From: Candidatus Bathyarchaeia archaeon
Lineage (GTDB): Archaea > Thermoproteota > Bathyarchaeia > Bathyarchaeales > Bathycorpusculaceae
Assembly (NCBI GenBank): GCA_049512075.1
Contig: JBEKXL010000001.1
Location: 336,410 to 376,409, forward strand
Length of the DNA: 40,000 nt
Direction of reading: 5' to 3'
The notes beneath the pieces were generated by a model that saw nothing but the letters and a program-made list of their open reading frames with translations, searched no databases and had not been told where the DNA came from. The translations under genes were made by a program, and so were the position numbers. Below, piece after piece: positions 219-39,890 of this stretch. The first letter of the stretch is position 1. Each line of letters starts with the position of its first letter.

Positions 219-245
219 TTAGCGCGCGCTGGGATTTGAACATTA
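219..245. repeat. Truncated third copy of the head of the 119-bp tRNA-like repeat (TTAGCGCGCGCTGGGATTTGAAC)
   Basis: Resembles CAAGCGCGCGCTGGGAGAGTTTCGAAC at 6041 and 32529. It lies 13 bp after the tRNA-Glu CCA end. Confidence 0.4.
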
Positions 246-837
246 GACCAAGTGAAGAAATCTTCCGCACAAACACTTTTTTTCTTTTAGCCCGCGTGGA
301 GGTGATCCCATCTGAGAAAAATAAATACAGATCAACCAAACCGCGGCGCTATTGTAGCTAGCTAGCTAGCAACCTTGCCCAACAGTTCACCATCCTCAGC
401 GGAATAGCAGCATTATTCTTTGTCTTAGCGGTAATGACGGTAAAGGACAAAATGGCCGACTAAGAAAGAGACTTACGCCCGAGAAGTGCGCATGTGCATG
501 CAACATGTCCTTTTCTTAAGGCGCGGGCGCTAAATACGAGACCTCAACCCAAGAATAAATGTTAACCAATTTCGGGACAAGCCAGCGCGCGCTATGGAGA
601 GAGACTGAGGTTAAAGTGAATCTTAGCTATAAGGGGCTCTGTCAACTCTTCGGGACTTGAATGATAGCGCCGCGCTACCTTAGAACCGAAAGCGGTTTAG
701 TTCGTGCTTCTTTCGCGCGCGCGAATGTGCGGAATGTTGCTCAAAGGAGCTACTGATTTAGCCCGCACTACCGATGATGCCGCAAACTTGAGTGAAACTT
801 ATAAAGAAACCAAGCGACTTTCATAAGGGCGAAATCC

Positions 838-1119
838 ATGTCCGAACCTTCAGCCCGTGCTAACCCTGACGATTTAGAAATGTTAAAACTTTTCAGAACG
901 CGACAAGACGCGCGTGCGCGCGAAATAGCACGCGCGCTAAGGATTTCGGGCATAATCCTTCTCGTCATTGGTCTGTTAGTAGCGGTTGGACAAACTTTCA
1001 ACATAATAAGTGAATTCTATTATGAAACAGAGTTGCTAGGCAGCTTGTGTTGGATCGCTGTCGGAATGGCAATTGAGTTCTTCGGCATAGGTCTAATTAT
1101 CGTTAGCAAAGAAAAATAG
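838..1119 (+). CDS. Small two-TM membrane protein (hypothetical)
   Basis: 93-aa ORF with two hydrophobic helices in the C-terminal half. The N-terminal part overlaps three GC-palindrome-like motifs (about 900-945), so the start and the reality of the gene are uncertain. Confidence 0.35.
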   Translation: MSEPSARANPDDLEMLKLFRTRQDARAREIARALRISGIILLVIGLLVAVGQTFNIISEFYYETELLGSLCWIAVGMAIEFFGIGLIIVSKEK

Positions 1120-1344
1120 CGAGCGCCATAAACACAAGCGCGCGCGCTGTTCGAGAGACATCTCCACTTGTCTTGGGTTCAAATCCCAAAGACCCTGCAA
1201 CCTAAACAAAAAAAGGGCGCGCGGTTGAGCTGGAGACGTTGTGAGGGGATTAACCCGTTGTGTTTGATTGCGTAAGTAAAGGATTTATTCGGCGAATACT
1301 CCAGAGGTTTGGCTATATTGGTTTGTTGTGAAGGGGGACGGGAA

Positions 1345-1839
1345 ATGAAGTCGGCTTTGCTCGTAATTGATGTGCAGAAGGAGTTTTTCAACATCAGTCA
1401 GACATGTTCTGACTCTTTGAAGTCGGCGGTTGAATACATAAATGCGACAATCGCCCTCTTTAGAAAGAAAAGTTTACCCGTCTTTGTCATACAACATAGG
1501 AGTGACAAGGAGGGCCTCGTACCAGGAAAACCAGGTTTTGACGTTCCTGAGAGTTTGAAGGTTGAGCCTCAGGATACACGCATAGTCAAGACCTATGGTA
1601 ACTCATTTGTGAAAACTGGTCTTGAAGAGAAACTCAGAGAACTTGGAGTTGACACGGTATTCGTGACTGGGTTTTGTGCAGAATTCTGCGTTTTATCCAC
1701 GTATAGAGGTGCTGAGAACCTTGACTTCGTGCCGATAATAGTAAAGGGTTCTATCGCTTCGGACAATATAGAACACATCAGGTTCGTGGAAGAGATCAGC
1801 GAAACCATTTCTCTCGGCGCATTGAAAACTCTTCTCTAA
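1345..1839 (+). CDS. Isochorismatase-family cysteine hydrolase
   Basis: MKSALLVIDVQKEFF N-terminus and VTGFCAEFCVLST motif (Asp/Lys/Cys triad context). ATG at 1345 is preceded by GGGGGA. The longer ORF-track start at 1309 is less likely. Confidence 0.8.
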   Translation: MKSALLVIDVQKEFFNISQTCSDSLKSAVEYINATIALFRKKSLPVFVIQHRSDKEGLVPGKPGFDVPESLKVEPQDTRIVKTYGNSFVKTGLEEKLRELGVDTVFVTGFCAEFCVLSTYRGAENLDFVPIIVKGSIASDNIEHIRFVEEISETISLGALKTLL

Positions 1840-2193
1840 TTCTATTCTTTAGCGCGCGCTTTCTGTCAGTTGGTTGTAAGAACAACCTTCCCCACTCTCA
1901 GCACGCTAACCTTATTTGGTATAGATAGCAGCGACCCTGAATCTGAACAAAAAAGGGAAATTTCGGTAGAAATTACAGTCTGGGAACGGTAACTCCCGGG
2001 CTACCACTCCTGGACTCCGCGAGCACACAGCAACTGTATCTGCACCTAATTAGGTATGAATCCCCACCGATCCACGTAGTGAATATATAGACGGTATTGC
2101 CTAGTAACTCATACCACATGGAGCAATGGAGGTTGGTGTTCATGCGAAAATTGAGGAGTTTAGAAGAAGGAAAAGAACCGGACTTAAAGTCTG

Positions 2194-2212
2194 AATCCCG
2201 GCCGGAGCACCA
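2194..2212 (+). repeat. Exact 19-nt copy of the tRNA-Glu 3' end (AATCCCGGCCGGAGCACCA)
   Basis: Identical to 188-206 and in direct orientation. No matching tRNA 5' half lies upstream. Confidence 0.85.
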
Positions 2213-2348
2213 TTGTTCTCACTCTTGATGTACCTGTTTTGCCCAAAAAAGCTCAGTTTAGGTAGCACGCGCGCTATCGAACAGAATGAATCGCGCGAGC
2301 TGAGTGTGTCTGAGAGTTACGTCAGATAAACATGCAAAATCGTGTTAG

Positions 2349-5300
2349 TTACTTGCGCTTCTGTAGGTCTTCTTTCCTAATAAGTAGCTCGTTCTCTAGA
2401 TGGTCCCGATTGCTCATCTTCTTGATCTTCAGGAATTTTTCTAGGCCTTTCTCTGTTTCTTTCTCGTGGATGTTGACCTCTCCGTCAAACAGTCCTAGAA
2501 TTGCGTGAAGCTCCTCTGAAGTGTGCATTTGAGGATCTATTACTGCTAGAGTAGTGAATCCCGCTGACCGCAATTCGGGTATGAGTGCAGCGAGCCATCT
2601 TCTCGTTTGAACTACATGATGTTGAAGGAGAACGTCCGAAATTATCTCAATGCAAATCCTTCTTGGACGCTGGTGAGTCGCATCTATTTTGCGGATGGCT
2701 GAAGTTAGAGCCATGTTGATGTTTGTCAAGTTGTCTACACCGTTTATCTTGACCACGTTGGGCAAGCTTTTGATGATCGCGTCTGCCTGAGGATTACACA
2801 CGAAGAGGCAGAAGTTTGAGGGGAACTCCTCCGCGAGTATCTTACAGTCACACATACCAGGGTCGATGGTGACATGAAATGTCTCTTCACCCCTTTTTGC
2901 CCCCGTCTCAAGAAAACTCCTGACCAGTAAACCCCTCACGTCGTAGGAAGGTGAGGTCAAAGCCACCGCGTAGTTTTCGGGTATCCCCCCACACAAAAGC
3001 CCGTCAAGGCCTGCGTACCCAGTAGCGATGTGACCGGGAATACCCTCCGAGACTTCTGCGGCGGGTTCGGACTTCGAGACCACTTCCCGCGCAGTTTCTT
3101 CGCGAACCATTCTTGACCTTGTTTTTTCTACCCTCTTGATCGCACCGATCTCCTGATATATGCCAAGTGCTTGGTTCAACAGCGAAAAGGCTCTTTCTTC
3201 ATCGCCCTCTTCGTTCCTTTCCAGATGCGTTGAGCCGTATTCGTACAGAAGATCAGCGAATGGTTCGACGTACCATTTCTGTGCATCCACGGATTTATAT
3301 CCTTGAAAGCTCTTTTCGAAGTGTTGTATTGATTGTTCCCAGTTTTTCTGCTCTCTCAAGAGCATTGCTTTCAACATTTCGACTTCGGCCATAACAAGCT
3401 TGTTTTTGGCTTTTGCTGCGTACGCACGGATCTTCTCGATCAGTTCCCTGGCCTTTTCACTTTCGCCTTTTTTCAGATACAACTTCGAAAGCTTAGGCAG
3501 CACTAGTAGAACCTGGGTGTCTACGTCTCCTGCTTCTTGATATGCGCTGTTGGATTCATTAAGGTACTTCTCTGCTTCCCCGTAGTCTTCCATTTCCATG
3601 AACAATTCGCCAAGCCCGACGCCCGCTTCTGCAGAAAACTGGTATTCTCCTACTCTTCTTGCCATGTCATAGGCTTCCCTCAGATACTGAAGACTCTTCT
3701 CCCATTCTCCTAAGACGAGATAGCATACGCCAATACCGGTCAATGGGACCGAAACATGGGCGGTGTATTTGGCTCTCTTGTCAAATGCCAAAATTTCTTC
3801 AAACATGGACATTGCTCTCTGGATTTCGCCCATGTACGCATAGCTTGAAGCCAACATCACATCAAGCCAGGCTAAGCCGTATAAGCCGCCAACTTTTCTC
3901 ACGAACTCCGACCCTTTCTGAGCGGTTTCAAATGATTTTTGAAGCTCTCCAATGCTACCGTAAAGTGTGGCAAGGTTGTTGTAGAAATTCGTAGCGTACC
4001 CTACCAAGTTATTCTTGAGAGCCATCTTCAGCCCTTGCTCGTAGTATTGCAGAGCCTTTTCATGTTCGCCAGATTTCAGACTTATCGTCCCCAAGTCATT
4101 ATAGCACCCTGTGAGGACTTGTTGGTTGCCTAGCCTCTCTGCGAGTTCAAAGGCTTTCTGTGCCCAAGACAATGCTTCAGGTTTGCCACTTCGCCAAAGC
4201 ATGTGTGAGATGTCTTCATATAGACCGGCTAGTTCCGCACTTTCAGGCTCTTTTTGAAGTATTTCCAAAGCCATGTTATGATGCTTAGAAGCAATGTCCT
4301 TGTCCCCAGCATTCTGCCAGAACAGTGATCCCATCCATCCGTGAAGTCGTGCACTGTTTTTCTTGTCTTCTAGCTGGTCCCACAAATCCAATGCTCTATC
4401 CCAGTATTCCAAGCAGACGCGTGGTTCGCCCATCCACCATTTGAGGCTACCAAGCCTTTCAATTATGCGCGCCTTCTTCTCAAGATTATCTCCTTGTTCT
4501 TCGAGAAGCTCAAGGGCATGCTGAAGGTAAGAAAAGGCCTCATTGTGAGCATAAACTCTCTGCGCTTTTTCCCCTGCCTTCAAGAAGTATTCAAGCGCCT
4601 TGTCCTTGTCACCAGCCTCCAAGAAGTGGTAAGCCAGTTCCCCAAAATGTTGATCAACACTACTAGCATAGACTTTCTCCAAAGCATTTCCAACAGAATC
4701 GTGAAGCTTCTTGTGTCGTAGATGGCTAACTTCTTCATGCACGACATCTCTCACCATTACATCAGCGAAACAGTACACATCTTCTGCACGAATCACCTTC
4801 TCCTTGACCAGTCCTGTCTTCAACATTCTTTCCATCAGTTCGAGTAATTTATTTTCCTCAATGCCAGTCACGCCGCGTAGAGCCTCAAATGTGAAGTCGT
4901 TACCGACGAAAGAAGCCAAGGTCAGAATGCTCTGGCTTTCATCATCCAATCGGTTTATTCTTGTCTTTATTACACTCTTTACAGTTGTAGGGAACTCGAT
5001 CTTTGAGACTTCCCTGATCTTCCATTGGTTCTCCTCGCGAAAGATAACGTCTTCTTCCTTCAGAGATCTCATCACTTCTTCCACGAAGAAAGGGTTCCCT
5101 CTAGTCTTCTCATAAACTAACTCACAGAACTCTTTCGGCACCTCTTCCTGCTCCAGGATCTGCCGGATCATCTCAGAAACATCATTGAGAGACATTCGCT
5201 TCAGCATGATAGGCCTCAACAGACGTTCCCTATTCAGTTCCGCCAAGACTGGCGACAGAGGATGCTTCTCGTCAACGTCAGTCTCACGATAAGCACCCAG

Positions 5301-5900: not shown

Positions 5901-6040
5901 AAGTATGACTCCATGCTAACGGTTAATCACATTCATCTTGTTGCGCAATCCTAAAAAAGATATCTCATACCACAAGAGAAAGTGATACAGCCCTTCTCAG
6001 CATGTGCATCGAACAAAATCAAAAACGGTCCATGCCTTTC

Positions 6041-6159
6041 CAAGCGCGCGCTGGGAGAGTTTCGAACCCTCGCCGAGCACAGGCAAGCATACTTTTTCCG
6101 GCAAATTCGTGTTCTGATAAGGGCTAGAGCACCATTTTGACGAGGTCAAGAGAGAGATA
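6041..6159. repeat. 119-bp repeat, copy A (tRNA-like T-arm plus acceptor remnant on the minus strand, ...CTAGAGCACCA on the plus strand)
   Basis: About 93% identical by eye to 32529-32648, in direct orientation. On the minus strand it contains GAGGG-TTCGAAA-CTCTC followed by CCAGCGCG. Confidence 0.85.
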
Positions 6160-6245
6160 TCGAGAAAAAGACGTGCTTTCACATGTTCTAGTTTCCTAGG
6201 AGAAAAGTTATAGTCCAGTTTGGCTCTGTTACGAGCAGGATGTAG

Positions 6246-7244
6246 AAGGCAATTTGTCTGGGCAAATATCTGGCTGTAGACCGAATCGAATTCATCGTAA
6301 CCTATCTCTGCAACTCAAGCTGTAGCCATTGCCAACTCAGTGAAGAAGAGAAAGGGAAGAGGTTTCCAAGTCATGTTGACAAGGACAAGACTGTCGAGAT
6401 TGTCAGAAAGGTCGGACAAGCGTATGCTCCAAAATCAATCATGACGTTTGGAGGAGAGCCTCTGCTCTATCCTGAAATCGTCTGCGCAATCCACGAACAA
6501 GCAAAGAAAGTGGGTATTCCCATTCGAGAAGTCATCACGAGCGGTTTCTGGTCGACAAGAGCAGAGAAGATTCAGGAAATCGCCCAGAACCTCGCGAAAT
6601 CTGGTGTTAATGAAGTCTCAATCTCGGTTGACTGCTTTCATCAAGAATTCATTCCGCTTAAGACCGTTAAGAAGGCCGCGAATTCACTCATTGCGGCAGG
6701 AATTGAGCGCGTAAGCTGGAATCCTTGTTGGGTCGTGTCTAAAGGTCATGACAACAAATACAATCGCAGAACCAAGACAATCCTGCAGAAACTCCGCAAT
6801 CTGCAAGTGGAAGAGAGTGAAGGAAACAGCGTGCAGCCCAAAGGAAGAGCCCGTTCATCTTTAACAGAATTCTTTCCACTGAGAACGCCAGTGCCGAAGG
6901 GAAAATGTGGCGAGATGCCCTACACGGAAGCGCTTGATTCAGTCAAAACAATTTCCGTAGAACCAGACGGAAGAGTTGCTGTCTGCGAGAATTTCTACAT
7001 CGGAAACGCGTTCAAATCCGACATCATTGATATCCTAGAGAACTATGACCCGTTCAAGATTCCTGAAGCCAAATCAATACTCGAAAAAGGCATGAACGGA
7101 CTGATAAAATGGGCAAAGAACAGAGACGTCGAGCCAAGGCCTGAGGGATACTACAACATCTGTCACATGTGCACCGATCTTCGAGAAAGAGCAAGCACCG
7201 CATGCTCGAATTCTTCAACCCACCGGCTACCAGTAAAAGATTAG
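6246..7244 (+). CDS. Radical SAM protein with a C-terminal Cys-rich SPASM/twitch-like region; 5' end unresolved
   Basis: CNSSCSHC (CxxxCxxC) is encoded at 6309-6332, upstream of the ORF-track ATG (6441) and in the same frame. GGEPLLYPE follows, then C-terminal Cys motifs (GRVAVC, CHMC). No ATG/GTG/TTG lies between the in-frame TAG at 6243 and the Cys motif. Confidence 0.7.
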   Translation, partial: KAICLGKYLAVDRIEFIVTYLCNSSCSHCQLSEEEKGKRFPSHVDKDKTVEIVRKVGQAYAPKSIMTFGGEPLLYPEIVCAIHEQAKKVGIPIREVITSGFWSTRAEKIQEIAQNLAKSGVNEVSISVDCFHQEFIPLKTVKKAANSLIAAGIERVSWNPCWVVSKGHDNKYNRRTKTILQKLRNLQVEESEGNSVQPKGRARSSLTEFFPLRTPVPKGKCGEMPYTEALDSVKTISVEPDGRVAVCENFYIGNAFKSDIIDILENYDPFKIPEAKSILEKGMNGLIKWAKNRDVEPRPEGYYNICHMCTDLRERASTACSNSSTHRLPVKD

Positions 7245-7273
7245 CGCACGCGCTTTTGGGTTTTGGGCTTGGG

Positions 7274-7286
7274 GGTAAAGTTTTAT
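7274..7286 (+). promoter_or_regulatory. GGTAAAGTTTTAT box (BRE/TATA-like), copy 1
   Basis: 13-mer shared with 20747, 22176 and 25632, and in variant form on the minus strand at 39633-39648, where it sits about 25-40 nt upstream of the MFS start codon. Confidence 0.45.
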
Positions 7287-7305
7287 TCCTTCCTTCCTTC
7301 AAGCA

Positions 7306-7570
7306 AGATCCTATAGCTGTGGTGAAGTTTCAGGTAAAGAGACGTCCCGAAGACGTAGTTGCTCCTGAACATCTTCTGCGTCAGCTGCGCGCCTATGAAG
7401 AGTTGCTTTCAAAATCTACTGGTTCTTTGCCCTATAGACAGCAAATACAGCTTAATGCAATAACTGAAGGGTTAGCCCTCATACGAGGAGATGTCGAACT
7501 CAAACAAGACCATGTGGACACAATTGCACGGCTTTCTAAATGGATAAACTACGACTTCAAAGAGATTTAG
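7306..7570 (+). pseudogene. C-terminal fragment of a paralogue of the 299-aa P-loop ATPase (14858-15757)
   Basis: VVKFQVKRRPEDVVAPEHLLRQLRAYEELLSKSTGSLPYRQQIQLNAITEGLALIRG...WINYDFKEI aligns with the last ~85 aa of the 14858-15757 product. No ATPase domain lies upstream. Confidence 0.7.
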
Positions 7571-7648
7571 CATGCGCGCTCTAAAATCTTAGTCAAACGA
7601 GTTCCCAAGCAGACATTCGAGCCCAGTAGATGCATGATGCTGGATAGA

Positions 7649-12315: not shown

Positions 12316-12424
12316 TAAATAGCTCTAGGCACAGTGAACGCGTTTCTGATTGAATCTAGATTCCTTCGGGCATATGATGGATGAGAGCAGAGCATAATTG
12401 AATAAATGTTAACGCGCGCGTGCT

Positions 12425-13450
12425 TCAGTTTAGGTTTGCTGTTCTGGGAATCCATGTTTCATGTTCATCTCTAAGATATCGGGCGAAGAGAAAAGCTTCT
12501 TCGTTAATCAATGTTTCAATGGTTTGGCGTTTGCCATGCTTCATTCTCGGAATCTCAACCACCGATTCAAAATAAGAATAGAGTTTACCTGTTAGATCAA
12601 CCGTCTCAGAATCGTTCAGGTACTCCCTCTGTCCAGCCTTGTTTTTACTGAATTCCTCATGCTTCATCATGAAGTCTTTTTTCTTGAAGTTTGCAGAGTT
12701 TTGAATGAGAAAGTTTTCAACAAGGTATCTGTACAATTCCATGAAGTCGCATACAAGAGACGGTTTACCCCATGCTTCAGAATGCAAGAAACCCAGATAC
12801 GGCTCAAGCTTCGCCCTTACGATGGCTCTGTAGACTTTCCATTTCAGAATCGTATAGGCAAGGTTGAAAAGATTGTTTAGTCCGTCATATGCCTTGAACG
12901 TTTTACGATTTTCAACTTGCATGAAACTCGGGAACAGTTGAAAGACCTGCTTGAAGTATTGTTTTGAACAATGGCCTTCAATTGCCATGAGTTTGGTTGT
13001 TATGTTTCCAGAATTGACTTCTTCAATTGCTCTCTTGATTGTGAGTAGATTATGTTGTCGCAGGCCATATTTTCTTAAGACAAGGTTCTCGGTTTCAATT
13101 CTGGAGGCGACTATCTTCTTGGCGATAGAGACTCCCTTATCGTTCTTAGAGGCTTCATATTGGCTGATTCGAGTCTTAACGTGGCTGTCATCGTCTAAGC
13201 CTTTCAGCATGGCGACAGGTTGACCTTTCTGGGTGACGATTAGAACGTCTATGTCCCAGAATCCCATAGAAGCTAAGGCTCCTGTCGAAACAAGATTTCC
13301 GCTTTTGAGAACCACTTCGCCTATCTCGTTTTCGAACAAAGGATAACGCTGAACATTCTGTTCTTTGTCCCTCACAATAAAGCAACCTTTCTCCATTCCC
13401 AAATATGAGCCTCGACCATCGAGAGCAATCTTGAGAACTTTAGTCTTCAA
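12425..13450 (-). CDS. cas1: Cas1 family endonuclease/integrase, stand-alone (no CRISPR array or recognisable Cas2 nearby)
   Basis: 341 aa with a TTG start. The N-terminal beta domain (LKIALDGRGSYLGMEKGCFIVRD...YPLFENEIGEVVL.SGNLVSTGALASMGFWDIDVLIV) has the typical Cas1 pattern. The C-terminal domain carries NLFNLAYTIL...LEPYLGFLHSEAWGKPSLVCDFMELYRYLV, matching the Cas1 GFLH...SL..D.ME..R catalytic region. Confidence 0.85.
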   Translation of the reverse strand: MKTKVLKIALDGRGSYLGMEKGCFIVRDKEQNVQRYPLFENEIGEVVLKSGNLVSTGALASMGFWDIDVLIVTQKGQPVAMLKGLDDDSHVKTRISQYEASKNDKGVSIAKKIVASRIETENLVLRKYGLRQHNLLTIKRAIEEVNSGNITTKLMAIEGHCSKQYFKQVFQLFPSFMQVENRKTFKAYDGLNNLFNLAYTILKWKVYRAIVRAKLEPYLGFLHSEAWGKPSLVCDFMELYRYLVENFLIQNSANFKKKDFMMKHEEFSKNKAGQREYLNDSETVDLTGKLYSYFESVVEIPRMKHGKRQTIETLINEEAFLFARYLRDEHETWIPRTANLN

Positions 13451-13482
13451 CTACCTTCCACTCCTCGGGCGCGTGCATCAAA

Positions 13483-24924: not shown

Positions 24925-25100
24925 AAGCGCGCGCGACGACTTAAGATGCTAATTTCTCGCGAAATGTTAGATGTAAATCATGTAATAAATATCAAAATAG
25001 ACCGAAAGAAAGATGACTTGATTTTTCAAGTTGACCTCAAGTCGAATAAATGAACCAACTAAACCTTTAAGCGCGCGCGCTATATTCCATGTGATTTTGC

Positions 25101-25613: not shown

Positions 25614-25631
25614 GTTTTGTGTGTGCGGGGG

Positions 25632-25644
25632 GGTAAAGTTTTAT
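25632..25644 (+). promoter_or_regulatory. GGTAAAGTTTTAT box, copy 4
   Basis: Flanked by inverted arms GGTTTTGTG ... CACAAAACC. About 220 nt upstream of the glycosyltransferase ATG. Confidence 0.4.
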
Positions 25645-25865
25645 CACAAAACCCAAAACTGGAAAAATGCATTGTAGTGCAATATGTTTTAATGGATTTG
25701 GTTAGTGTGCGTGGTTTTCCAACATATTTATTTGTCAGTAAAACTATTCGAGATCTATAGCGCGCGCTAAGAATCCTAGAAACAAAGTAGATACAAGAAA
25801 AACAGAAGACAGAACTAGCGTGGCAACATGACAGAAATGTGATATCAAGTAGATGTGGGAACTGA

Positions 25866-27059: not shown

Positions 27060-27341
27060 GCTCCTGTTTCCATGTTTTTCTCTCCAGGAAAAAGGCTTGC
27101 CCATTTTTTTGGGCATAATTTCTAAGGGCTATTTTTAGCGCGCTTTTTTGACGACGACGTCTTAGCGCGCGAGTATTCTCTTACACATGGTGCGGTAGCC
27201 CAGGAGAAACCGCTACTTAGGCCATAGTTTTTACTTTCTAGCTTAAGGAGTTTCGCCCATATCCTCTCTTTCTCGAAAGCGACAGACATGTGGTCGAGCA
27301 AAATGAGCAAGTATTTAAAGCAAACGTGTTAACGAATTCGC

Positions 27342-32434: not shown

Positions 32435-32528
32435 TTTTACTGGTATAATCTTAGTGCGACAGCAGGAGCCTCAGACTTCTCGGAATAACCCTTCACAGGT
32501 AAAGAAACCGAAAGTCTGATCCGCCAGA

Positions 32529-32648
32529 CAAGCGCGCGCTGGGAGAGTTTCGAACCCTCGCCGAGCACAAGGCAAGCATACCTTTTCCGGCAAATTCGTT
32601 TTCTGATAATGGCTAGAGCACTATTTTGATGAGGTCAAGAGAGAGATA
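32529..32648. repeat. 119-bp repeat, copy B
   Basis: About 93% identical to 6041-6159, in direct orientation. It lies 95 bp after the tRNA-Glu 3' copy. Confidence 0.85.
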
Positions 32649-33146
32649 GCGCCCGCTCACGCCGGTTTCCAATGAGAATTTGGCGCGTTATCTACTTCCT
32701 GATTTCTTATGGTCCGAGAAAATGAGCATATCGAGTCAACAGCTCAGAAGAAGCGGGCGTCCGGGTTCTGTGAAGTCTTTGTCACCTTGCTAATTTTGGT
32801 CTCCATGTGAAAATTCGTCACCTGCAACGATACTGGCGCGTAAAGGGACATGAACCGTTCGCTGAGTTTTGTTCGATGTTCATAACGACTGACCTATAGC
32901 GACCCTAACCTGTCGCGAGTCGATTGCAAATTCTTCAGCAATGCTTGGCTATTAGGAAAAACTCTCACCCCGACACGCAAGAAATTGAGCTTTATTTGAA
33001 GATAAGCAATGGTAATCATCACTATTATGAATTTGCCGACTTCGTAGTTTCTCTTGCTCATTCTATGATTCTACCTCTCTGAGATGGCGTGCGCAACCTA
33101 TTTAAGAATCACGATTATATCACGTCGATGGTTTGGTGCACAAATT

Positions 33147-34502: not shown

Positions 34503-34618
34503 GAGACTCGCTCGGCTCAGGCCGCGAACCGTTCTCTAGAATTTTCCCAGATCAGACTATCATATCTCGTCTCCAAGTAGGCTTGCGCGCGCGCTAATCC
34601 CTGACTATTACAATGAAA

Positions 34619-34637
34619 ATTACATCTGACATTACAA
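34619..34637 (+). repeat. 19-nt direct repeat ATTACATCTGACATTACAA, copy 1
   Basis: Exact match to 34706-34724. Confidence 0.9.
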
Positions 34638-34705
34638 ACAAAAGGGCCGAGTCCACTCTGAACAGCCTTTCAGCCCGTTTTTCTTCATGGTTTGTTACCA
34701 CACAC

Positions 34706-34724
34706 ATTACATCTGACATTACAA
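34706..34724 (+). repeat. 19-nt direct repeat ATTACATCTGACATTACAA, copy 2
   Basis: Exact match to 34619-34637, with 87-bp spacing. Confidence 0.9.
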
Positions 34725-34892
34725 GTGAAAAAGGGGAGCGACCCAGCGCGCGCGGCATGATCCGCCAGCCAAGATCAACTGGACAGTCATGGTCTGCATG
34801 CGAGGACAATTGTGAGACTTGAACTTGACGAACTCAAAACTCAAATACAAGCTCTACCTATCGAGTAATCTTCTTGGTTGAAGGTGAAATTA

Positions 34893-36428
34893 ATGGCTGG
34901 AAATGCAGTGTCAGACTATAATACGCTGATGGAGAAAGCCAAGGAACTTGCTATTTTGATGTCAACGGAATCCATGATTAGCTGGGATATGGAGACGATG
35001 ATGCCTCCGAAGGGTATCAACCTGCGCAGCCAGCAACTTTCTTTACTCAGTGTAATTGAGCACAAGATGAGCACTCACCCGGAGATTGGAGCCCTACTGC
35101 AGAAGATCAAGCGAAGCCCAGAGTATGACAAGCTTGACCAGGTGCAGAAAAGAAACGTTTACCTCATCCAGAAACGCTACGACGAACAGACGAAGCTTCC
35201 AGAAGAACTCGTAGCAGCGATTGCAAAACAGCAGGCTCTGTCTATTGACACGTGGAAGAAGGCGAAAGCGGCCAAAAACTATGCCATGTTCAGACCTGAG
35301 CTTGAGAAACTCGTTGAACTGCAGAAGAAGGCCGCGGACATTTTGATGAAGGTAAAAGAGACGGCAACACCCTACGATGCGATAATAGACATCTTCGAAC
35401 CCAAGATGACCGCCAAAGCAATCACCAAAATCTTCGATGAACTCAGAGAAGGGCTAGTTAAGGTTCTGAAGAAATGTGAGGCTGCGCCGAAACAGCCGGA
35501 TCTAAGCGTTCTGAAGCACAAGGTCCCGATAGACGTGCAATACAAAATCGCGGTGGCGCTCGCCGAGGCCGTCGGGTACGATGTAACATCAAAACGAGCA
35601 GGAGGCAGAATCGACCCCACCGAGCACCCCTTCACAACAGGCTACTACGACGATGTTAGAATAACAACGCACTATTACGAGGATCTCTTCGCATCCTCAA
35701 TCTTTTCCGTTCTGCATGAAGCAGGGCACGCCATGTACGAACAGAACCTCAAGCAGGAATGGATGTACCAGCCGATCGGCAGCGGCGTTTCAAGCGGTTT
35801 CCATGAGTCACAATCCCGTTTTGTCGAAAACGTTGTGGGCCGATCCCGCGAGTTCTGGACCTACTTCCTGCCAAAGCTCAAAGAAGTCGGCGGTAGCACG
35901 CTGTCAGGCTTGAATCTGGACAAGTTTGTTCACGCAATAAACCAGGTTAAACCCTCAAAAATCCGCGTTGAAGCAGACGAAGTCACCTACGGACTGCACA
36001 TAATCATAAGGTTCAACATTGAACGCGACCTCTTCGCCGACAAAATAACAGTCAAGGAACTCCCAGAAATATGGAACCAAAAGTACAAAGAGTATCTAGG
36101 CTTAAAAATCGAAAACGATTCAGAAGGCGTAATGCAAGACACCCACTGGGCCAGCGGCTATTACGGCTATTTTCCAAGCTATGCATTGGGCAACATCTAC
36201 GACGGACAATTACTCACAGCAATGGAGAAAACTTTACCAGACTGGCGGAAACAACTGACGAAAGGCAACTTCAACGAGGCAAAAGCGTGGCTGACCAAAA
36301 ACGTTCACAGCCAAGGAAACCTCTACGACCCCCCCGACCTAATCAAGAGAATCGCAGGAACAGAAATAGACGTAAAACCGTACATGGGGTACCTGAACAA
36401 GAAGTTCTCTGAACTCTACGGTTTCTGA
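34893..36428 (+). CDS. M32 family carboxypeptidase (carboxypeptidase Taq-like)
   Basis: HEAGHAMYEQ (HExxH), TEHPFTTG, DVRITTHYYED and IRVEADEVTYGLHIIIRF. ATG 34893 is preceded by GGTGA. Confidence 0.9.
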   Translation: MAGNAVSDYNTLMEKAKELAILMSTESMISWDMETMMPPKGINLRSQQLSLLSVIEHKMSTHPEIGALLQKIKRSPEYDKLDQVQKRNVYLIQKRYDEQTKLPEELVAAIAKQQALSIDTWKKAKAAKNYAMFRPELEKLVELQKKAADILMKVKETATPYDAIIDIFEPKMTAKAITKIFDELREGLVKVLKKCEAAPKQPDLSVLKHKVPIDVQYKIAVALAEAVGYDVTSKRAGGRIDPTEHPFTTGYYDDVRITTHYYEDLFASSIFSVLHEAGHAMYEQNLKQEWMYQPIGSGVSSGFHESQSRFVENVVGRSREFWTYFLPKLKEVGGSTLSGLNLDKFVHAINQVKPSKIRVEADEVTYGLHIIIRFNIERDLFADKITVKELPEIWNQKYKEYLGLKIENDSEGVMQDTHWASGYYGYFPSYALGNIYDGQLLTAMEKTLPDWRKQLTKGNFNEAKAWLTKNVHSQGNLYDPPDLIKRIAGTEIDVKPYMGYLNKKFSELYGF

Positions 36429-36607
36429 TCAGACGCACTCTTTGCCCGATGCAAAAACACTCTCAACAATACGTACGCGACGATTCCCCCGACAAACAAG
36501 TAAACCCCAGTCCAGCCGACGATATTATCATAATAGTTTGCCCCGTACAAGAACAAGATGACTCCTAAGATAACAACGAACAAACACGCGAGTCCCTTCC
36601 ATTCCAC
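36416..36607 (-). CDS. Small two-TM membrane protein (hypothetical)
   Basis: 63-aa hydrophobic ORF, convergent with the carboxypeptidase and overlapping its end by 13 nt. Confidence 0.35.
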   Translation of the reverse strand: MEWKGLACLFVVILGVILFLYGANYYDNIVGWTGVYLFVGGIVAYVLLRVFLHRAKSASDQKP

Positions 36608-36936
36608 AAGACCAGCTCCGCAAACCGGTTTTAACCCTCTTACAATATCTCAAAGTATATAGACTTAACGATTACAGACCAATGTCCACATCAAAACAAC
36701 AGTCGACAGCACACAAGCCCGCCTCTTCGAGCACAACACAGTCGAAACCCAGACAGTTCATCCACCCTCCTCACCACACCTACAGACAATGTCACGAGCA
36801 TGCCGAAAAAGCGTCTATAGTCCAGTGTGGCTCGACACTTGAATGCAGAACTGCCTGCGCATTTGACTTTTTTCCTGCATGTTTCCGACAGTCTTATATA
36901 CCACTTATGCATCCAAATAGCGTGTGTGATCAGCAA

Positions 36937-38391
36937 ATGTCGGAACACAACGTTAAGAAGCCTGAAACAAGGGAAGAGTTTGTCGACATGCTCCTAGAAG
37001 CTGCGAAGAAGGCTGCCGAAGACCGCGGTGTCCCGAAGGTTAGACCGACAAAACCTACAGTTCTTGGAACAGCTGAAGTCTTAAACATACACAGGGACAC
37101 CCTTTATGCTTGGCTTAAGGAGTTTAATGTCGATTTCAAAGATATATCAGACAGTATTCCGACAGACATTGTGTCGGCATATGGGGACGCAACGGGGAAG
37201 GTCTATTTGATTGGGGAAGCACTTGTCGGAGACGGGAATGAAGTTGCACATATCGATCTTCTGATAGGTGACAAGAACGGGCCAGTTGGAAACGCGTTTG
37301 CGCAAGGCATGTGCAGTCTTTCAGCAGGGCACACGCCGCTTTTGGCGGTCATACGTCCCAACCTTCCGCCCAAGCCGCACACGCTTCTTGTGCCAAAAGT
37401 CACTACGAAGAATATGGAGGACGTGAACAAGATCTTCGGCCCAGCTCAGGCTGCTGTGGCGAAGGCCGTTGCAGACGCGGTGGAAGACGGGATAATTCCA
37501 ACCGACAAGATTGATGATTGGGTGATCATATGCAGCGTCTTTGTTCATCCAGCAGCAAGCGATTTTCGAAAGATCTACCATTACAATTACGGAGCCACGA
37601 AACTGGCCTTGAAACGAGCCCTGGCGAAGTATCCCCCGCTGGAGAAGATCCTCTACGACAAGGACAGAGGCAAACATCCGATAATGGGATTCAAGGTGCC
37701 GCGTCTATGGAGACCACCGTACCTGCAGATTTCACTTGACAACCCTGACTTGGACAGTGCAAAGAAGATCATAGCTCAGCTGCCAGGAAGCGACAGGATA
37801 ATCATTGAAGTGGGCACCCCGCTTATCAAGAGATACGGAACAAAAGTGATAAACGAACTCAGAGAAGTGGCCAAGAGCATGTTCTTCGTTGCAGATCTGA
37901 AAACATTGGACGTTGGAAAAGTCGAAGTTGACCTTGCCTACGACGAAACCGCAGACGCTGTGGTAGCCTCTGGACTTGCACCGGCTGAAACCCTTGACGC
38001 GTTCATTCACGAAGCAAAAAGACTGGCAACGTACGGAGTGGTGGACATGCTCAACGTCGAAGATCCCCTCAAGAAGCTCAAGTCTATCAAAGAATTTCCA
38101 GACATAGTAATCTTGCACAGAGGAATAGACCAGGAAACCGGAAGAACGCACGGAATGGAGATTATCCCTGAAATACGTCAAACCTTCAAGGACAAGAAAT
38201 TCCTCATCGCCGTAGCAGGCGGAATAGTGCCAGAAACGGCCCGCGAAGCGTTGCAGAAAGGTGCAGACATAATCATCGTCGGACGATACATAACCCAGTC
38301 AAAGGACGTTGAACGCGCAGTGAGAGACTTCCTGGAAGCAACACCAGAAATGCGAGAAGACATCGATCTGTTCAGAGTCCATGTCGAGTAA
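36937..38391 (+). CDS. fae-hps: Bifunctional formaldehyde-activating enzyme / 3-hexulose-6-phosphate synthase (Fae/Hps), possibly with an N-terminal HTH extension
   Basis: GEALVGDGNEVAHIDLLIGDKNGP...LLAVIRPNLPPKP (Fae) followed by LQISLDNPDLDSAKKII...IIIEVGTPLIK (HPS/OMPDC fold). ATG 36937 lies about 40 nt after CTTATATA. An alternative TTG at 37207 would give the canonical MIGEALVG start. Confidence 0.85.
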   Translation: MSEHNVKKPETREEFVDMLLEAAKKAAEDRGVPKVRPTKPTVLGTAEVLNIHRDTLYAWLKEFNVDFKDISDSIPTDIVSAYGDATGKVYLIGEALVGDGNEVAHIDLLIGDKNGPVGNAFAQGMCSLSAGHTPLLAVIRPNLPPKPHTLLVPKVTTKNMEDVNKIFGPAQAAVAKAVADAVEDGIIPTDKIDDWVIICSVFVHPAASDFRKIYHYNYGATKLALKRALAKYPPLEKILYDKDRGKHPIMGFKVPRLWRPPYLQISLDNPDLDSAKKIIAQLPGSDRIIIEVGTPLIKRYGTKVINELREVAKSMFFVADLKTLDVGKVEVDLAYDETADAVVASGLAPAETLDAFIHEAKRLATYGVVDMLNVEDPLKKLKSIKEFPDIVILHRGIDQETGRTHGMEIIPEIRQTFKDKKFLIAVAGGIVPETAREALQKGADIIIVGRYITQSKDVERAVRDFLEATPEMREDIDLFRVHVE

Positions 38392-38417
38392 GCATCTGTC
38401 CACTTTTTTTCTCCTGC

Positions 38418-39608
38418 CTATGCGAAGATCTTGAAGAAGACGAAGGCAGCGAAGAATATTGCACCGGCCACAACAAAAACTTGGAGGAACCCCGAAGCCT
38501 GAGCGATGAAAGGGCCAATAAACGAGCCGAAGGCTCCTCCCACGCCTATCAGAACATTGATCAGACCCGCTTTGCCTGCTGGTATAAGCTCCATAGACAG
38601 AGAAAGAATGGCCACCATAAAGACTGCAAAGAGAAATCCCATAGCAACTAGAATTCCGGTAGTCAGCAGAACGTTAAAAGATGACAGATTCAACGCGGCA
38701 AGAAGCACGAAGGCAAGCAGGCTTCGAAACAGCACTAGTCTGGCTACGCGGGCTTTCCCAGTTGACCCCTGCGACCTTCTGCCAGCCAATACGTAGCCCC
38801 CAATAGCTCCCCCGGAATTGAGCACGTAAATCGCGAAGACGAATCCCGCCGTGGGGGCGATGCTGTTCACAAACACGGGCATTGGAGTGAACAATATGCT
38901 CGTGGCAAGCGAGAAAAGCACTAGTCCGCAGCAGAAGGCTGTGACGTTCTCTCTTTTCAATTTCTCATCCAGACCTATGCCGTCCATCATTCTGGAAGCT
39001 ACAAAAACACCGTGAGACGCGAAGTCCACAGTCTTCTCGAGGCTCACCAAGCTTCTCTCAAAAATCATGGGCGGGTCCACCACGAATATAGCGGAAAGAA
39101 CGAATGCCACGAAGTTCAGTCCTGCAACAAGATAAAGCGTGCTCGTTGGGCCGAACCCGTAGAATGAAGCGAAGAAGCCTAACACTAAGCCGATCACTGA
39201 TCCGACTTCCGTGAGTCCTTCGTAAAAGGCGAAGTTCCTCTCCCAGTCTTGATGTGAATATAGTTCAGAGATGAGAACGTTCTTCGGAGCTTCATGGGCA
39301 ACGTGAAAAATCGACATTACCGCGTAGAGCACAATAAGCAAAGGCATGTACGTCGTGAAAGTGAAGAGATATATCATGACGGTCGAGCCGAGCAACGCAA
39401 GGAGAATATAACGTTTGTAGTGTCGCGTCTTGTCGCATAAATATCCCCAGACGAACGAGGCGGGGATAGCTGCGAAAAGGGCGATGGCGGTGATGACTCC
39501 AACATAGAATAATCCGTTCTTGGAGTCGATTATGAGTAAGTACAGCGGCAGGAAAATGGAGAGTAATGCGAAGGCCATTTCGTGGAAGAAGAACCCCAGC
39601 CGCCACAT
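38418..39608 (-). CDS. MFS transporter
   Basis: 396 aa with about 12 TM helices. A promoter box lies directly upstream. Confidence 0.8.
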   Translation of the reverse strand: MWRLGFFFHEMAFALLSIFLPLYLLIIDSKNGLFYVGVITAIALFAAIPASFVWGYLCDKTRHYKRYILLALLGSTVMIYLFTFTTYMPLLIVLYAVMSIFHVAHEAPKNVLISELYSHQDWERNFAFYEGLTEVGSVIGLVLGFFASFYGFGPTSTLYLVAGLNFVAFVLSAIFVVDPPMIFERSLVSLEKTVDFASHGVFVASRMMDGIGLDEKLKRENVTAFCCGLVLFSLATSILFTPMPVFVNSIAPTAGFVFAIYVLNSGGAIGGYVLAGRRSQGSTGKARVARLVLFRSLLAFVLLAALNLSSFNVLLTTGILVAMGFLFAVFMVAILSLSMELIPAGKAGLINVLIGVGGAFGSFIGPFIAQASGFLQVFVVAGAIFFAAFVFFKIFA

Positions 39609-39632
39609 AGCCAGAAAACCTCGTCAAAGCAA

Positions 39633-39648
39633 GATTAAAACTTTTACC
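39633..39648 (-). promoter_or_regulatory. GGGTAAAAGTTTTAAT box (variant of GGTAAAGTTTTAT) upstream of the MFS gene
   Basis: On the minus strand, 25-40 nt upstream of the ATG at 39608. Confidence 0.55.
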
Positions 39649-39890
39649 CAACCAAAACCAACGAACCCGGGATTCGTTCTCGCAGGCATGAGCGCTAGTC
39701 TATCCATCTTGTGACCTCGTGTGGGCGCGGCCGTCTAGAGGGAGGAGGAATCATGTCGGCGTATCCTGTGAGGCGCGCGCGCTCTTGTGCAATTAGAGCC
39801 TGATGGTTGAATCAGTTGTTATTCCACAAGCAACAAGATCCACAAGAAATAAGAACATAGTATCTGATAGTGTTCTATTGATAGGGTAAT

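What the first reader, a model, noticed from the sequence alone, without database searches (positions are those of the whole stretch)
219..39786. GC-only palindrome T(T)AGCGCGCGCTA(A) in almost every intergenic gap
By eye I count roughly 30-35 exact GCGCGC hexamers. My rough estimate from base composition is that five to ten would be expected. Only about five lie inside confident CDSs: two in the STAND gene, one in the glycosyltransferase, one in the ATPase fragment, and those in the doubtful 838-1119 ORF. Typical instances are 219-230, 1848-1860, 20256-20267, 22133-22143, 24398-24414, 25068-25084, 25758-25770, 34585-34598 and 39770-39786. They often begin at or within a few nt of a stop codon; the TAG of the radical SAM, 7306-7570 and 20952-21359 ORFs is part of the motif. 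They sometimes occur in pairs 25-90 bp apart, which could form long stems (for example 586-597 with 667-679, and 27133-27143 with 27160-27172). Three gene-fragment breakpoints coincide with them. Candidate roles include REP-like elements tied to a transposase, transcript 3'-end or processing signals, protein-binding boundary elements, or recombination sites that shuffle gene cassettes.
Basis: seen in the sequence. Interest (0 to 1): 0.65.

Follow-up and report, generated by a model that had tools for sequence, protein, structure and literature searches.

The report
Transposon tips and scars, GC-only
The short GC-only palindromes that fill the gaps between genes in this peat archaeon are most likely the end-pieces and left-behind scars of one family of jumping genes, so they record where DNA was inserted, lost or swapped rather than acting as a signal the cell reads.

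Summary
GCGCGC occurs 59 times in the window (overlapping hits) against 7.6 expected. GCGCGCGC is the most over-represented 8-mer of this 2.7-Mb Bathyarchaeia genome (646 against 28). About 85% of runs of 8 nt or more lie outside genes.

The motif is not placed like a terminator. Its density is equal in convergent, divergent and tandem gaps.

GCGCGC is the invariant outermost hexamer of both inverted ends of a ~1.1-kb IS5-like insertion sequence with a DDE transposase. It also caps at least 30 miniature derivatives (MITEs). GCGCGC-ended copies with a full-length transposase were found only in the six motif-rich genomes among 41 relatives.

The solitary A(GC)4-5T copies have no conserved flanks. 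They appear as clean 8-12-bp indels between relatives. They sit at 25% of synteny break points, against about 2% expected, and at two polarity-resolved deletion junctions.

Their length stops sharply at 10 nt: (GC)5:(GC)6 is 90:2 here and 179:9 in five relatives. Two terminal hexamers joined with a 2-6-nt overlap would give exactly this.

My reading is that these are transposon ends plus excision or collapse scars. The link to the IS family is strong. The scar chemistry is inferred.

This scan reached a similar conclusion on another Bathyarchaeia genome (e1-3085161).

The parts
222..229 (.). solitary (GC)4 run, TA on the left, 16 nt after tRNA-Glu
517..534 (.). degenerate copy TTAAGGCGCGGGCGCTAA that bounds the IS-end remnant on its inner side
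533..592 (+). 60-nt remnant of one end of the IS family (…CCAATTTCGGGACAAGCCA + GCGCGCGC). At least 12 other copies in the genome end at the GC run in the same way.
664..678 (.). degenerate copy ATAGCGCCGCGCTAC
714..723 (.). solitary (CG)5 run
1138..1147 (.). solitary (GC)5 run
1852..1859 (.). solitary (GC)4 run, TTTA on the left, 12 nt after the stop of the isochorismatase gene
6044..6051 (.). (GC)4 run that opens the 122-bp direct repeat 6041-6162. Its left flank is unrelated to that of the other copy.
7241..7253 (.). degenerate copy TTAGCGCACGCGC. Its TAG is the stop of ORF 6441-7244.
7568..7580 (.). TAGCATGCGCGCT, which reads as the last 10 nt of an IS/MITE end (GCAT+GCGCGC). Its TAG is the stop of ORF 7169-7570.
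12413..12420 (.). (CG)4 run 4 nt beyond the stop of the stand-alone Cas1 gene
19426..19433 (.). (GC)4 run where similarity to paralogous beta-helix gene copies ends (19128-19421)
20258..20265 (.). solitary TA(GC)4TA
20324..20331 (.). solitary (GC)4TA, 59 nt from the previous run
21445..21454 (.). (GC)5 run. A repeated segment (21456-21494) starts right after it.
22137..22144 (.). solitary TA(GC)4, 7 nt after the stop of ORF 21569-22129
24401..24410 (.). solitary (GC)5TA
24927..24935 (.). (GC)4G run at the point where the Cas1 fragment (24679-25053) loses similarity to full-length Cas1
25071..25080 (.). (GC)5TA. The duplicated segment 25082-25610 (other copy at C4:42540-43089) starts right after it. 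The other copy ends at its own (GC)4.
25760..25767 (.). solitary TA(GC)4TA
27138..27171 (.). pair TA-GCGCGC … TA-GCGCGCG, 21 nt apart
32532..32539 (.). (GC)4 run that opens the second copy of the 122-bp direct repeat (32529-32651)
34585..34594 (.). (GC)5TA that cuts off the left side of a multi-copy repeat (34595-34745)
34746..34754 (.). (GC)4G that cuts off the right side of the same repeat. Synteny with the nearest relative (L001) breaks here.
39773..39782 (.). (GC)5 run at the edge of a 5.5-kb segment that L001 lacks. L001 has (GC)5 and (GC)4 runs at its own break points.

Best explanation
The palindromes are the mark of one transposon family, not a signal that the cell uses.

Shown:
- A ~1.1-kb IS5-like insertion sequence encodes one DDE transposase of about 316-350 aa with an N-terminal DUF772 domain.
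- At least 30 gene-less miniature derivatives (MITEs, 130-300 bp) exist in this genome.
- Both the IS and the MITEs carry GCGCGC as the outermost six base pairs of both inverted ends, usually next to TA (…T TA|GCGCGC-ATGCNTGTTCCTAAA…TTTAGGAACANGCAT-GCGCGC|TA A…).
- GCGCGC-ended copies with a full-length transposase occur only in the genomes that are rich in the motif.
- Solitary copies are gained as 8-12-bp indels. They sit at synteny breaks and at two deletion junctions whose polarity is resolved.

Inferred:
- The solitary A(GC)4-5T copies, which are the majority, are what stays behind when such an element is lost.
- The two self-complementary terminal hexamers, left on the flanks by transposase cleavage or by collapse of the inverted repeat, pair over 2, 4 or 6 nt and are sealed.
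- This gives 10, 8 or 6 nt of alternating GC and almost never 12.
- Elements persist only where they do no harm, and aberrant events at their ends also delete, capture or exchange neighbouring DNA. So the scars pile up in intergenic and accessory DNA, at the edges of strain-specific segments and at gene-fragment break points.
- Where TA is kept, the scar reads TAG on both strands. A truncated reading frame that enters it in the right phase therefore stops there.
For: Abundance and placement:
- GCGCGCGC occurs 646 times against 28 expected and is the top 8-mer.
- Of 581 runs of 8 nt or more, 83-87% are intergenic, while 20% of the genome is intergenic.
- Density is equal in the three classes of gap.

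Link to the IS family:
- 96 arms and 30 complete MITEs have an exact GCGCGC cap on both ends. The sub-families differ right after the cap.
- The 1109-bp element C32:7469-8577 encodes a protein that matches DDE_Tnp_1 (E 6e-17) and DUF772.
- Full-length copies in G001, G003, G004, G021 and G002 are all GCGCGC-ended.
- Transposase homologues of 71% identity or more occur only in G000, G001, G003, G004 and G021. G002 has a 41-45% sub-family. Those six genomes hold 29-115 copies of AGCGCGCGCT, and the other 35 relatives hold 0-11.
- At six MITE loci with an informative flank, relatives lack any GC run at the junction. So the hexamer travels with the element.

Solitary copies as scars:
- The outer flanks of solitary runs resemble those of IS ends (A at -1, TA the commonest dinucleotide, TTA…TAA).
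- The length cut-off is sharp. (GC)4:(GC)5:(GC)6 is 249:90:2 in G000, and (GC)5:(GC)6 is 179:9 in five other genomes.
- There are five clean 8-12-bp motif-only indels between G000 and G002.
- 22 of 87 synteny block ends have a run within 5 nt, against 1.7% per genome for random intergenic positions.
- Two deletions carry a de novo motif at the junction, with polarity fixed by third genomes. In G000 C13, AC[CGCGCGCG]TA replaces about 780 bp that G002 and G004 share. L225 has A[GCGCGCGC]T in place of 2.2 kb. At the right break point a third genome (L004) shares L223's arrangement; at the left break point L004 has a degenerate GC run and different DNA.
- Truncated IS ends sit next to short runs (33 against 12 expected, p = 4e-7).
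Against: - No orthologous site was found with the element in one genome, a scar in the other and both flanks conserved. Among 27 G000 MITE loci and 5 MITE loci in relatives' DNA, only one flank was ever conserved.
- The five clean indels show no duplicated TA. One looks like a 6-bp duplication around CGCGCG.
- TA flanks are rarer at solitary runs (about 30%) than at IS/MITE ends (60%).
- End-joining scars after excision are well known in eukaryotes, but are not an established outcome for prokaryotic IS5-like elements. This rests on my knowledge, not on a test.
- The 10-nt ceiling could also reflect instability of longer (GC)n tracts.
- Some motif-bounded inserts, such as the 302-bp and 425-bp inserts of G002, have no recognisable inverted ends of this family.
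- G023 and G018 hold 9-11 motif copies without a detected transposase.
Confidence: 0.58

Rival explanations
1. Target-site model. The palindrome is a pre-existing preferred target. The IS inserts into it and duplicates it, as hairpin-targeting IS1182-type elements do. On this view GCGCGC at the element ends is a target duplication, and solitary copies are unused or restored targets.
For: Three empty sites with one motif correspond to filled sites with two motifs (pairs 16, 18 and 21). The best NCBIfam hit by score is IS1182. At two of eight informative MITE junctions the relative has a GC run at the same position.
Against: The cap is exactly 6 nt on both sides in about 90% of ends, although (GC)4-5 solitary copies are about as common as solitary (GC)3. 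When an end does have (GC)4, the other end has (GC)3. At six MITE loci relatives show no GC run at the junction. The model offers no source for new motif copies, yet clean de novo indels and deletion-plus-motif junctions exist.
Confidence: 0.14
2. Break-repair filler that does not depend on the IS. A lineage-specific end-joining activity adds or selects short self-complementary GC tails at any double-strand break. The IS family only shares or has captured this end sequence.
For: Two deletions carry a de novo A(GC)4T-like filler, and the undeleted relatives show no element at the break points. Clean indels lack target duplications. Motifs sit at many kinds of rearrangement.
Against: No candidate enzyme was identified. 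The motif's distribution among genomes follows the GCGCGC-ended IS family. The flanks of solitary copies mirror the flanks of IS ends. A constant sequence is not expected from known end-joining polymerases (my knowledge, not a test).
Confidence: 0.1
3. Dedicated site-specific recombination. The motif is the crossover core of an integron-like cassette system that inserts and exchanges gene cassettes.
For: Variable segments are bounded by motifs. The same flank can be joined to different DNA at a conserved motif (pairs 1, 7 and 10). Single genes and gene fragments lie between motifs at window 19.4-27.2 kb.
Against: The motif arises at sites that lack it in relatives. An 8-10-bp core has no accessory arms and no conserved flanks. 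No recombinase follows the motif: Cas1 does not, and tyrosine recombinases were not screened. Solitary copies are equally frequent next to core genes.
Confidence: 0.06
4. Cellular signal. The motif is a transcript 3'-end or processing signal, or a binding site of an abundant DNA-binding protein (a boundary or silencing element).
For: The motif is strongly excluded from genes. It is palindromic. Many copies lie close to stop codons.
Against: Density is the same in divergent (0.74 per kb), tandem (1.00) and convergent (1.02) gaps. The median distance from the upstream stop is 134 nt. Only 15-20% of gaps have one. Turnover between 94%-identical genomes is high: of 35 motif observations (sites conserved in both genomes are listed once from each side), 20 were conserved, 9 decayed, 1 shortened and 5 were indels. 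The motif is absent from most of the family.
Confidence: 0.05
5. HIP1-like palindrome that is built up by substitutions through a methylation-linked repair bias.
For: It is a hyper-abundant GC-rich octameric palindrome restricted to a lineage, as HIP1 is in cyanobacteria (PMC5861425, PMC4390886).
Against: It is excluded from coding DNA. It is gained as indels rather than by substitution. No C5 cytosine methyltransferase (PF00145) was found in a 99.8%-complete genome. N4 and N6 enzymes were not screened.
Confidence: 0.03

Closest known systems
IS5/IS1182-superfamily insertion sequences (DDE_Tnp_1 transposases) and their MITEs
   Same: One DDE_Tnp_1 transposase with a DUF772 N-terminal domain. 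About 1.1 kb long. Terminal inverted repeats. Many gene-less short derivatives with the same ends. TA-type target, as in several IS5 sub-groups (target knowledge from memory).
   Different: The protein is below every NCBIfam IS-family cut-off. An invariant self-complementary GCGCGC cap is shared by sub-families that differ right behind it. No target duplication was shown at a clean empty site.
Excision footprints of cut-and-paste DNA transposons (Tc1/mariner: TA + terminal nucleotides of both ends + TA)
   Same: Short palindromic scars made of the element's terminal nucleotides, often between two TA. The scars are much more numerous than the elements.
   Different: Footprints are a eukaryotic hallmark that depends on end joining. 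Here the host is an archaeon, the scar is 8-10 nt of one constant sequence, the pairing of self-complementary tips is my inference, and no element-versus-scar allele pair was seen.
HIP1 (GCGATCGC) of cyanobacteria (PMC5861425, PMC4390886)
   Same: An octameric GC-rich palindrome that is the most over-represented word of the genome and is restricted to a lineage. Deletions between copies have been reported (from memory).
   Different: As I recall, HIP1 is also abundant inside genes. It is linked to orphan methyltransferases and is modelled as substitution-driven (PMC4390886). This motif avoids genes, is gained by indels and follows a transposon family.
GC clusters of yeast mitochondrial DNA (PMC4478555)
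   Same: Short GC-rich palindromic mobile DNA in AT-richer intergenic space, with presence/absence variation between strains. Links to TAG flanks, recombination and deletion junctions are from memory.
   Different: GC clusters are 30-60 bp structured elements of an organelle with no known transposase. Here the unit is 8-12 bp and a parent IS is identified.
REP/REPIN elements with RAYT transposases
   Different: REPs are 20-40-nt imperfect palindromes with a GTAG head and a single-copy Y1 RAYT. The Y1 genes here belong to a multi-copy IS200-type IS with different hairpins.

Membership tests
IS5/IS1182-superfamily insertion sequence | DDE_Tnp_1 catalytic domain in the encoded protein | tested here: met
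   PF01609 E 6e-17 over residues 86-269, plus PF05598 (DUF772) E 5.6e-6. A YREK-like stretch KRPTIEAVYSFLK is seen in the sequence.
IS5/IS1182-superfamily insertion sequence | Terminal inverted repeats that bound a ~1-kb element, in several copies | tested here: met
   Elements of 1082-1111 bp with GCGCGC-TGSCTTGTCCC… or GCGCGC-ATGCKTGTTCC… ends occur in G000, G001, G002, G003, G004 and G021. There are 10 transposase matches in G000.
IS5/IS1182-superfamily insertion sequence | Score above a curated family model (NCBIfam IS5, IS1182, IS4, IS982) | tested here: not met
   The best scores are IS1182 77.6 bits (cut-off 270) and IS5_4 50.6 bits (cut-off 140), the latter with a near full-length alignment. 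The protein is a distant or new family within the superfamily.
IS5/IS1182-superfamily insertion sequence | Short target-site duplication | tested here: inconclusive
   TA lies outside 54 of 90 ends and on both sides of most MITEs. TA is its own reverse complement, and no clean empty site was found.
MITE | Short, non-coding and multi-copy, with ends that match an autonomous IS of the same genome | tested here: met
   There are 30 complete elements, mostly 130-300 bp with a few longer, whose arms share the GCGCGC cap and the TGTYCC…AAA core with the IS.
Transposon excision footprint | Scar composed of the element's terminal nucleotides | tested here: met
   Solitary runs are alternating GC only, like the 6-nt cap. 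Lengths 6, 8 and 10 equal 12 minus a 6-, 4- or 2-nt overlap. (GC)6 is nearly absent: 2 against 90 for (GC)5 here, and 9 against 179 in five relatives.
Transposon excision footprint | Same site with the element in one genome and a scar in another, both flanks conserved | tested here: not met
   None was found among 27 G000 MITE loci and 5 MITE loci in relatives' DNA. Two junctions have a GC run at the same position, but the far flank is unrelated.
Transposon excision footprint | Target duplication kept on both sides of the scar | tested here: inconclusive
   TTA…TAA is the commonest flank of solitary runs. Only about 30% have TA on a given side, and the five clean indels show no extra TA.
REP/RAYT | A 20-40-nt imperfect palindrome with a GTAG head, and a single-copy Y1 transposase flanked by REPs | tested here: not met
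   The motif is 8-12 bp with no conserved flank. The PF01797 genes are a 547-bp IS200-type IS that sits at 20 or more contig ends and has CCCCGGGG-type hairpins.
HIP-type iterated palindrome | Abundant in coding DNA as well, with a cognate methyltransferase | tested here: not met
   83-87% of runs are intergenic. No PF00145 match was found in the genome. Other methyltransferase classes were not screened.
Transcription terminator / 3'-end signal | Enrichment downstream of genes, with depletion in divergent gaps | tested here: not met
   Density is 1.00 per kb in tandem, 1.02 in convergent and 0.74 in divergent gaps. The median distance from the stop is 134 nt.
Integron-type cassette site (attC with IntI) | A 60-140-bp imperfect palindrome with R/L boxes, and an integron integrase | not tested
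   Size and the lack of conserved flanks speak against it. No search for IntI or other tyrosine recombinases was run.

The most novel reading that the evidence does not exclude
The GCGCGC cap is a built-in donor-healing device. After the transposase cuts, the self-complementary tips left on the chromosome pair with each other, or with the tips at any other cut end, and are ligated without a dedicated end-joining pathway. One IS family would then both scar the genome with a constant palindrome and drive much of the deletion, capture and swapping of accessory DNA in these Bathyarchaeia.
Probability: 0.3. Interest if true: 0.72.

Novelty: new variant of a known kind. Interest (0 to 1): 0.55.

Why it matters
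If the reading holds, a single insertion-sequence family explains three things in this genus of uncultured peat archaea. It explains the most over-represented word of the genome. It explains why accessory DNA looks cut into cassettes. It explains why gene fragments end at TAG inside the motif.

It would be a rare prokaryotic case of constant-sequence transposon scars that outnumber the elements themselves. In that case the solitary copies could be used to map past insertion and deletion events in metagenome-assembled genomes.

It also warns annotators and motif hunters. A hyper-abundant intergenic palindrome can be transposon debris rather than a regulatory or recombination signal.

Tried and rejected
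1. Terminator or 3'-end signal. Rejected by position statistics.
2. tRNA-like origin of the flank TGGGATTTGAAC at 231. Only tRNA-Glu 129-206 is called, and the flank is not a T-arm.
3. RAYT/IS200 as the enzyme. The Y1 genes are a multi-copy IS200-type IS with other hairpins.
4. Stand-alone Cas1 (casposase-like) as the inserting enzyme. Full-length copies occur in motif-free genomes G008 and G012. G001 and G002 have only fragments although they hold 29 and 87 motif copies.
5. GCGC-type C5 methyltransferase. None was found.
6. Larger repeat unit around the solitary copies. Flanks are not conserved beyond 2 nt, and only 152 of 2874 arms cluster.
7. Clean empty sites for MITEs, sought in both directions. 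None was found.
8. Outgroup polarity for the small indels. The intergenic DNA of G001, G003 and G004 is too diverged.
9. Strain-level variants from metagenome contigs. The best matches were only 90-93% identical, but the L223/L225 pair gave one resolved deletion.
10. Literature. No paper holds GCGCGCGC together with archaea and intergenic.
11. Sub-terminal IS 4-mers next to runs of 8 nt or more. Not enriched (17 against 12.7), so this neither helps nor harms the scar model.
12. 16S rRNA for naming. Not in the assembly. The organism was named from relatives' record titles.
13. Read-level test.

Full report
**Origin of the window.** The window is G000:C1:336410-376409 of a 2.73-Mb metagenome-assembled genome (86 contigs, 47.5% G+C, 99.8% complete). 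No 16S gene is in the assembly. The closest public relatives of its Fae-Hps protein are all Candidatus Bathyarchaeia MAGs from peat and soil, the nearest being SPRUCE 151 at 92% amino-acid identity. The window itself is accessory DNA. It holds a tRNA-Glu with a copy of its 3' end 2 kb away, 122-bp direct repeats that bracket 26.5 kb, a stand-alone Cas1, a Cas1 fragment and other gene fragments.

- GCGCGC gives 59 overlapping hits against 7.63 +/- 2.85 in shuffles.
- These hits form 37 maximal alternating G/C runs of 6 nt or more, 20 of them 8 nt or more.
- With my own ORF and codon-usage gene calls (2605 genes, 80% coding), 28 of the 37 runs and 19 of the 20 long runs lie outside genes.
- The one long run inside an ORF (24927-24935) is where the Cas1 fragment stops resembling Cas1.

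**The motif is a property of the genome and of the genus.**
- GCGCGCGC is the most over-represented 8-mer of the genome (646 against 28 by base composition).
- There are 581 runs of 8 nt or more. Between 83% and 87% are fully intergenic, against 20% of the genome.
- The flank logo is A at -1 and T at +1 (69% each), with weaker T at -2 and A at +2 and nothing beyond. Solitary copies are therefore not part of a longer repeat.
- Run length stops abruptly: 284 runs of 8 nt, 186 of 9, 105 of 10 and only 6 longer.
- Copies are spread over the whole genome but over-dispersed. The window has about 2.2 times the mean density.
- Among 40 relatives, AGCGCGCGCT is frequent only in the four other genomes of the same genus (29-98 copies) and in one other genus of the family (G021, 63 copies). 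Most others have 0-1. The reversed control word gives 0-7.

**It is not placed like a transcription signal.** Density is 1.00 per kb in tandem gaps, 1.02 in convergent gaps and 0.74 in divergent gaps. Only 15-20% of gaps hold a copy. The median distance from the upstream stop is 134 nt.

**It marks places where DNA was gained, lost or exchanged.**
- Against the nearest relative (L001), every synteny break in and beyond the right half of the window lies at or next to a run in one of the two genomes.
- I fetched 400 kb of the closest genome, G002 (about 94% nucleotide identity), and aligned it to G000.
- Of 87 alignment-block ends, 22 (25%) have a run of 8 nt or more within 5 nt in at least one genome. 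The figure for random intergenic positions is 1.7% per genome.
- Junction anatomy shows three patterns: empty sites with one motif against filled sites with an insert between two motifs of different (GC)n length (pairs 16, 18, 21); conserved motif positions joined to different DNA (pairs 1, 7, 10); and ordinary insertions with target duplications and no motif (pairs 4, 5, 14).
- For motifs inside well-aligned DNA I scored 35 observations (a site conserved in both genomes is listed once from each side). Twenty were conserved, nine decayed by substitution, one was shortened, and five were clean 8-12-bp indels of just the motif.
- Two deletions have resolved polarity. In G000 C13, AC[CGCGCGCG]TA stands where G002 and G004 share about 780 bp of coding sequence with no GC run at either end.
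- In a related species, strain L225 has A[GCGCGCGC]T where strain L223 (98% identical) has 2.2 kb, and L223 has no GC run at either break point. L004 shares L223's arrangement across the right break point. At the left break point L004 carries a degenerate GC run followed by different DNA.
- The motif therefore arises de novo at joints.

**Source of the motif.**
- I read the 50 nt outward from every run and clustered these arms. The clustering gave one large family. A sequence-pattern search for its core then found 96 such arms.
- The arms come in inverted pairs. There are 30 complete MITEs, mostly 130-300 bp, of the form xTA GCGCGC ATGCNTGTTCCTAAAWTGG … CCAWTTTAGGAACANGCAT GCGCGC TAx.
- Sub-families differ right behind the hexamer (ATGC, TGGC, TGCC, TAGC), but the GCGCGC cap is exact on both ends in about 90% of cases.
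- A 1109-bp member (C32:7469-8577) encodes a 291-aa frame that matches DDE_Tnp_1 (PF01609, E 6e-17) and DUF772.
- A full 316-aa ORF is present in the G001 copy.
- The protein is below every NCBIfam IS-family cut-off. The best are IS1182 at 77.6 of 270 bits, and IS5_4 at 50.6 of 140 bits with a near full-length alignment. It is therefore a distant IS5-like family.
- Homologues of 71% identity or more exist only in G000, G001, G003, G004 and G021. G002 has a 41-45% sub-family.
- All these copies are about 1.1 kb and GCGCGC-ended.
- These six genomes are exactly the six motif-rich ones.
- A broken single copy in G020 is also GCGCGC-ended, and that genome has one motif copy.
- In the window, 533-592 is a 60-nt remnant of such an end that finishes in the run 585-592. 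The sequence at 7568-7580 reads as the last ten bases of an end.

**Is the hexamer part of the element or of the target?**
- At six G000 MITE loci for which a relative keeps one flank, the relative has no GC run at the junction. At two it has one, and at two it has the same element.
- The cap is a fixed 6 nt, although (GC)4-5 copies are about as common as solitary (GC)3. When one end has (GC)4, the other has (GC)3.
- I therefore take GCGCGC as the tip of the inverted repeat and TA (a TTAA-like site) as the target.
- No clean empty site was found in either direction, so the target duplication is not proven.

**Solitary copies.** There are 240 solitary (GC)4 and 90 (GC)5 without an arm, and only two (GC)6. 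In five other genomes (GC)5:(GC)6 is 179:9.

- Two terminal hexamers joined through a 6-, 4- or 2-nt overlap give 6, 8 or 10 nt, and 12 only by blunt joining. This matches the ceiling.
- Their outer flanks resemble those of element ends: A at -1 in about 69% against 83%, TA as the commonest dinucleotide, and TTA…TAA overall.
- Short runs without a recognisable arm still carry the sub-terminal IS 4-mers more often than expected (33 against 12, p = 4e-7), so truncated ends exist. Runs of 8 nt or more do not (17 against 12.7), as expected if they hold cap nucleotides only.
- I infer that solitary copies are scars of element loss, either transposase excision or collapse of the inverted repeat. I also infer that aberrant joining of cut ends accounts for the deletions and swaps.

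**Weak points of the scar model.**
- No element-versus-scar allele pair with both flanks conserved was seen.
- The five clean indels lack a duplicated TA.
- TA is less frequent at solitary copies than at element ends.
- Longer (GC)n tracts might simply be unstable.
- Some motif-bounded inserts have no ends of this family.

**Other candidates were tested and dropped.**
- The Y1 (PF01797) genes are a 547-bp IS200-type IS with CCCCGGGG-type hairpins. It ends many contigs.
- The distribution of Cas1 does not follow the motif.
- No C5 methyltransferase is present.
- I found no paper on this motif in archaea.
- HIP1 of cyanobacteria (PMC5861425, PMC4390886) and the GC clusters of yeast mitochondria (PMC4478555) are the nearest phenomena in the literature. 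They differ in placement, size and proposed origin.

**Earlier notes of this scan.** After my own analysis, a word search showed a follow-up on another Bathyarchaeia genome (e1-3085161). It likewise read GC-only palindromes as rejoining scars and leftover transposon tips. That agrees with my reading but is not independent proof. The notes on this window about the Cas1 fragment, the ATPase fragment, the tRNA-Glu copies and the direct repeat were re-checked where they touch this finding.

**Verdict.**
The motif is tied to a transposase and to rearrangement break points. The enzyme is a DDE IS5-like one, and the solitary palindromes are best read as scars, not as signals or dedicated recombination sites.
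- My confidence that the motif family derives from this IS family is about 0.85.
- My confidence in the scar mechanism as stated is about 0.5-0.6.

Noticed in passing
window 34595-34745 (and 35 other places in G000): Multi-copy repeat of about 150-250 bp with two ATTACATCTGACATTACAA boxes about 87 nt apart. Dozens of copies in G001 and G002. Many copies share longer conserved flanks. Its nature is unknown (MITE, small RNA or promoter module).
   Followed up: partly
L132 1370-1916 (G000:C21) and 20 or more contig ends: A 547-bp IS200-type element (TnpA only, 139-153 aa) with CCCCGGGGCTTGCCCCGGG-type hairpins. Its termini sit at many contig ends, so it is the main reason the assembly is fragmented.
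   Followed up: partly
window 129-206 and 2194-2215: tRNA-Glu(UUC) with encoded CCA, and a direct copy of its 3' end (AATCCCGGCCGGAGCACCA) 2 kb downstream. This looks like att-type remains of an element integrated at the tRNA gene.
   Followed up: no
window 6041-6162 and 32529-32651: 122-bp direct repeats (94% identical) that bracket 26.5 kb. Both begin exactly at a (GC)4 run and have unrelated DNA on the outer side.
   Followed up: partly
window 12425-13450; also G000 C2:64827, C37:3461, C43:178: Four full-length stand-alone Cas1 genes plus fragments in one genome. Close homologues are scattered among relatives, with no link to the GC motif. No CRISPR array or family-B polymerase was looked for.
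   Followed up: partly
window 22175-22195 and 25625-25640: Recurring box GGGGGTAAAGTTTTATC(C)AACC, found in many places in the genome upstream of small ORFs. It looks like a shared BRE/TATA promoter module of mobile or accessory genes.
   Followed up: no
window 2255-2268 and 12421-12435: Direct repeat GCT(C/T)CAGTTTAGGT. It lies once just before and once just after a CG run, around the 10-kb block that holds the STAND, radical-SAM and beta-helix genes.
   Followed up: no
G2C2 46886-47312 and G2C1 204711 (G002), G000 C14:8005: A second kind of GC-capped arm, GCGCGC-TTCATGATTTGTTACCGCACAACATTACCACGG. It is related to part of the ATTACATCTGACATTACAA repeat and may be another capped element family.
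   Followed up: no
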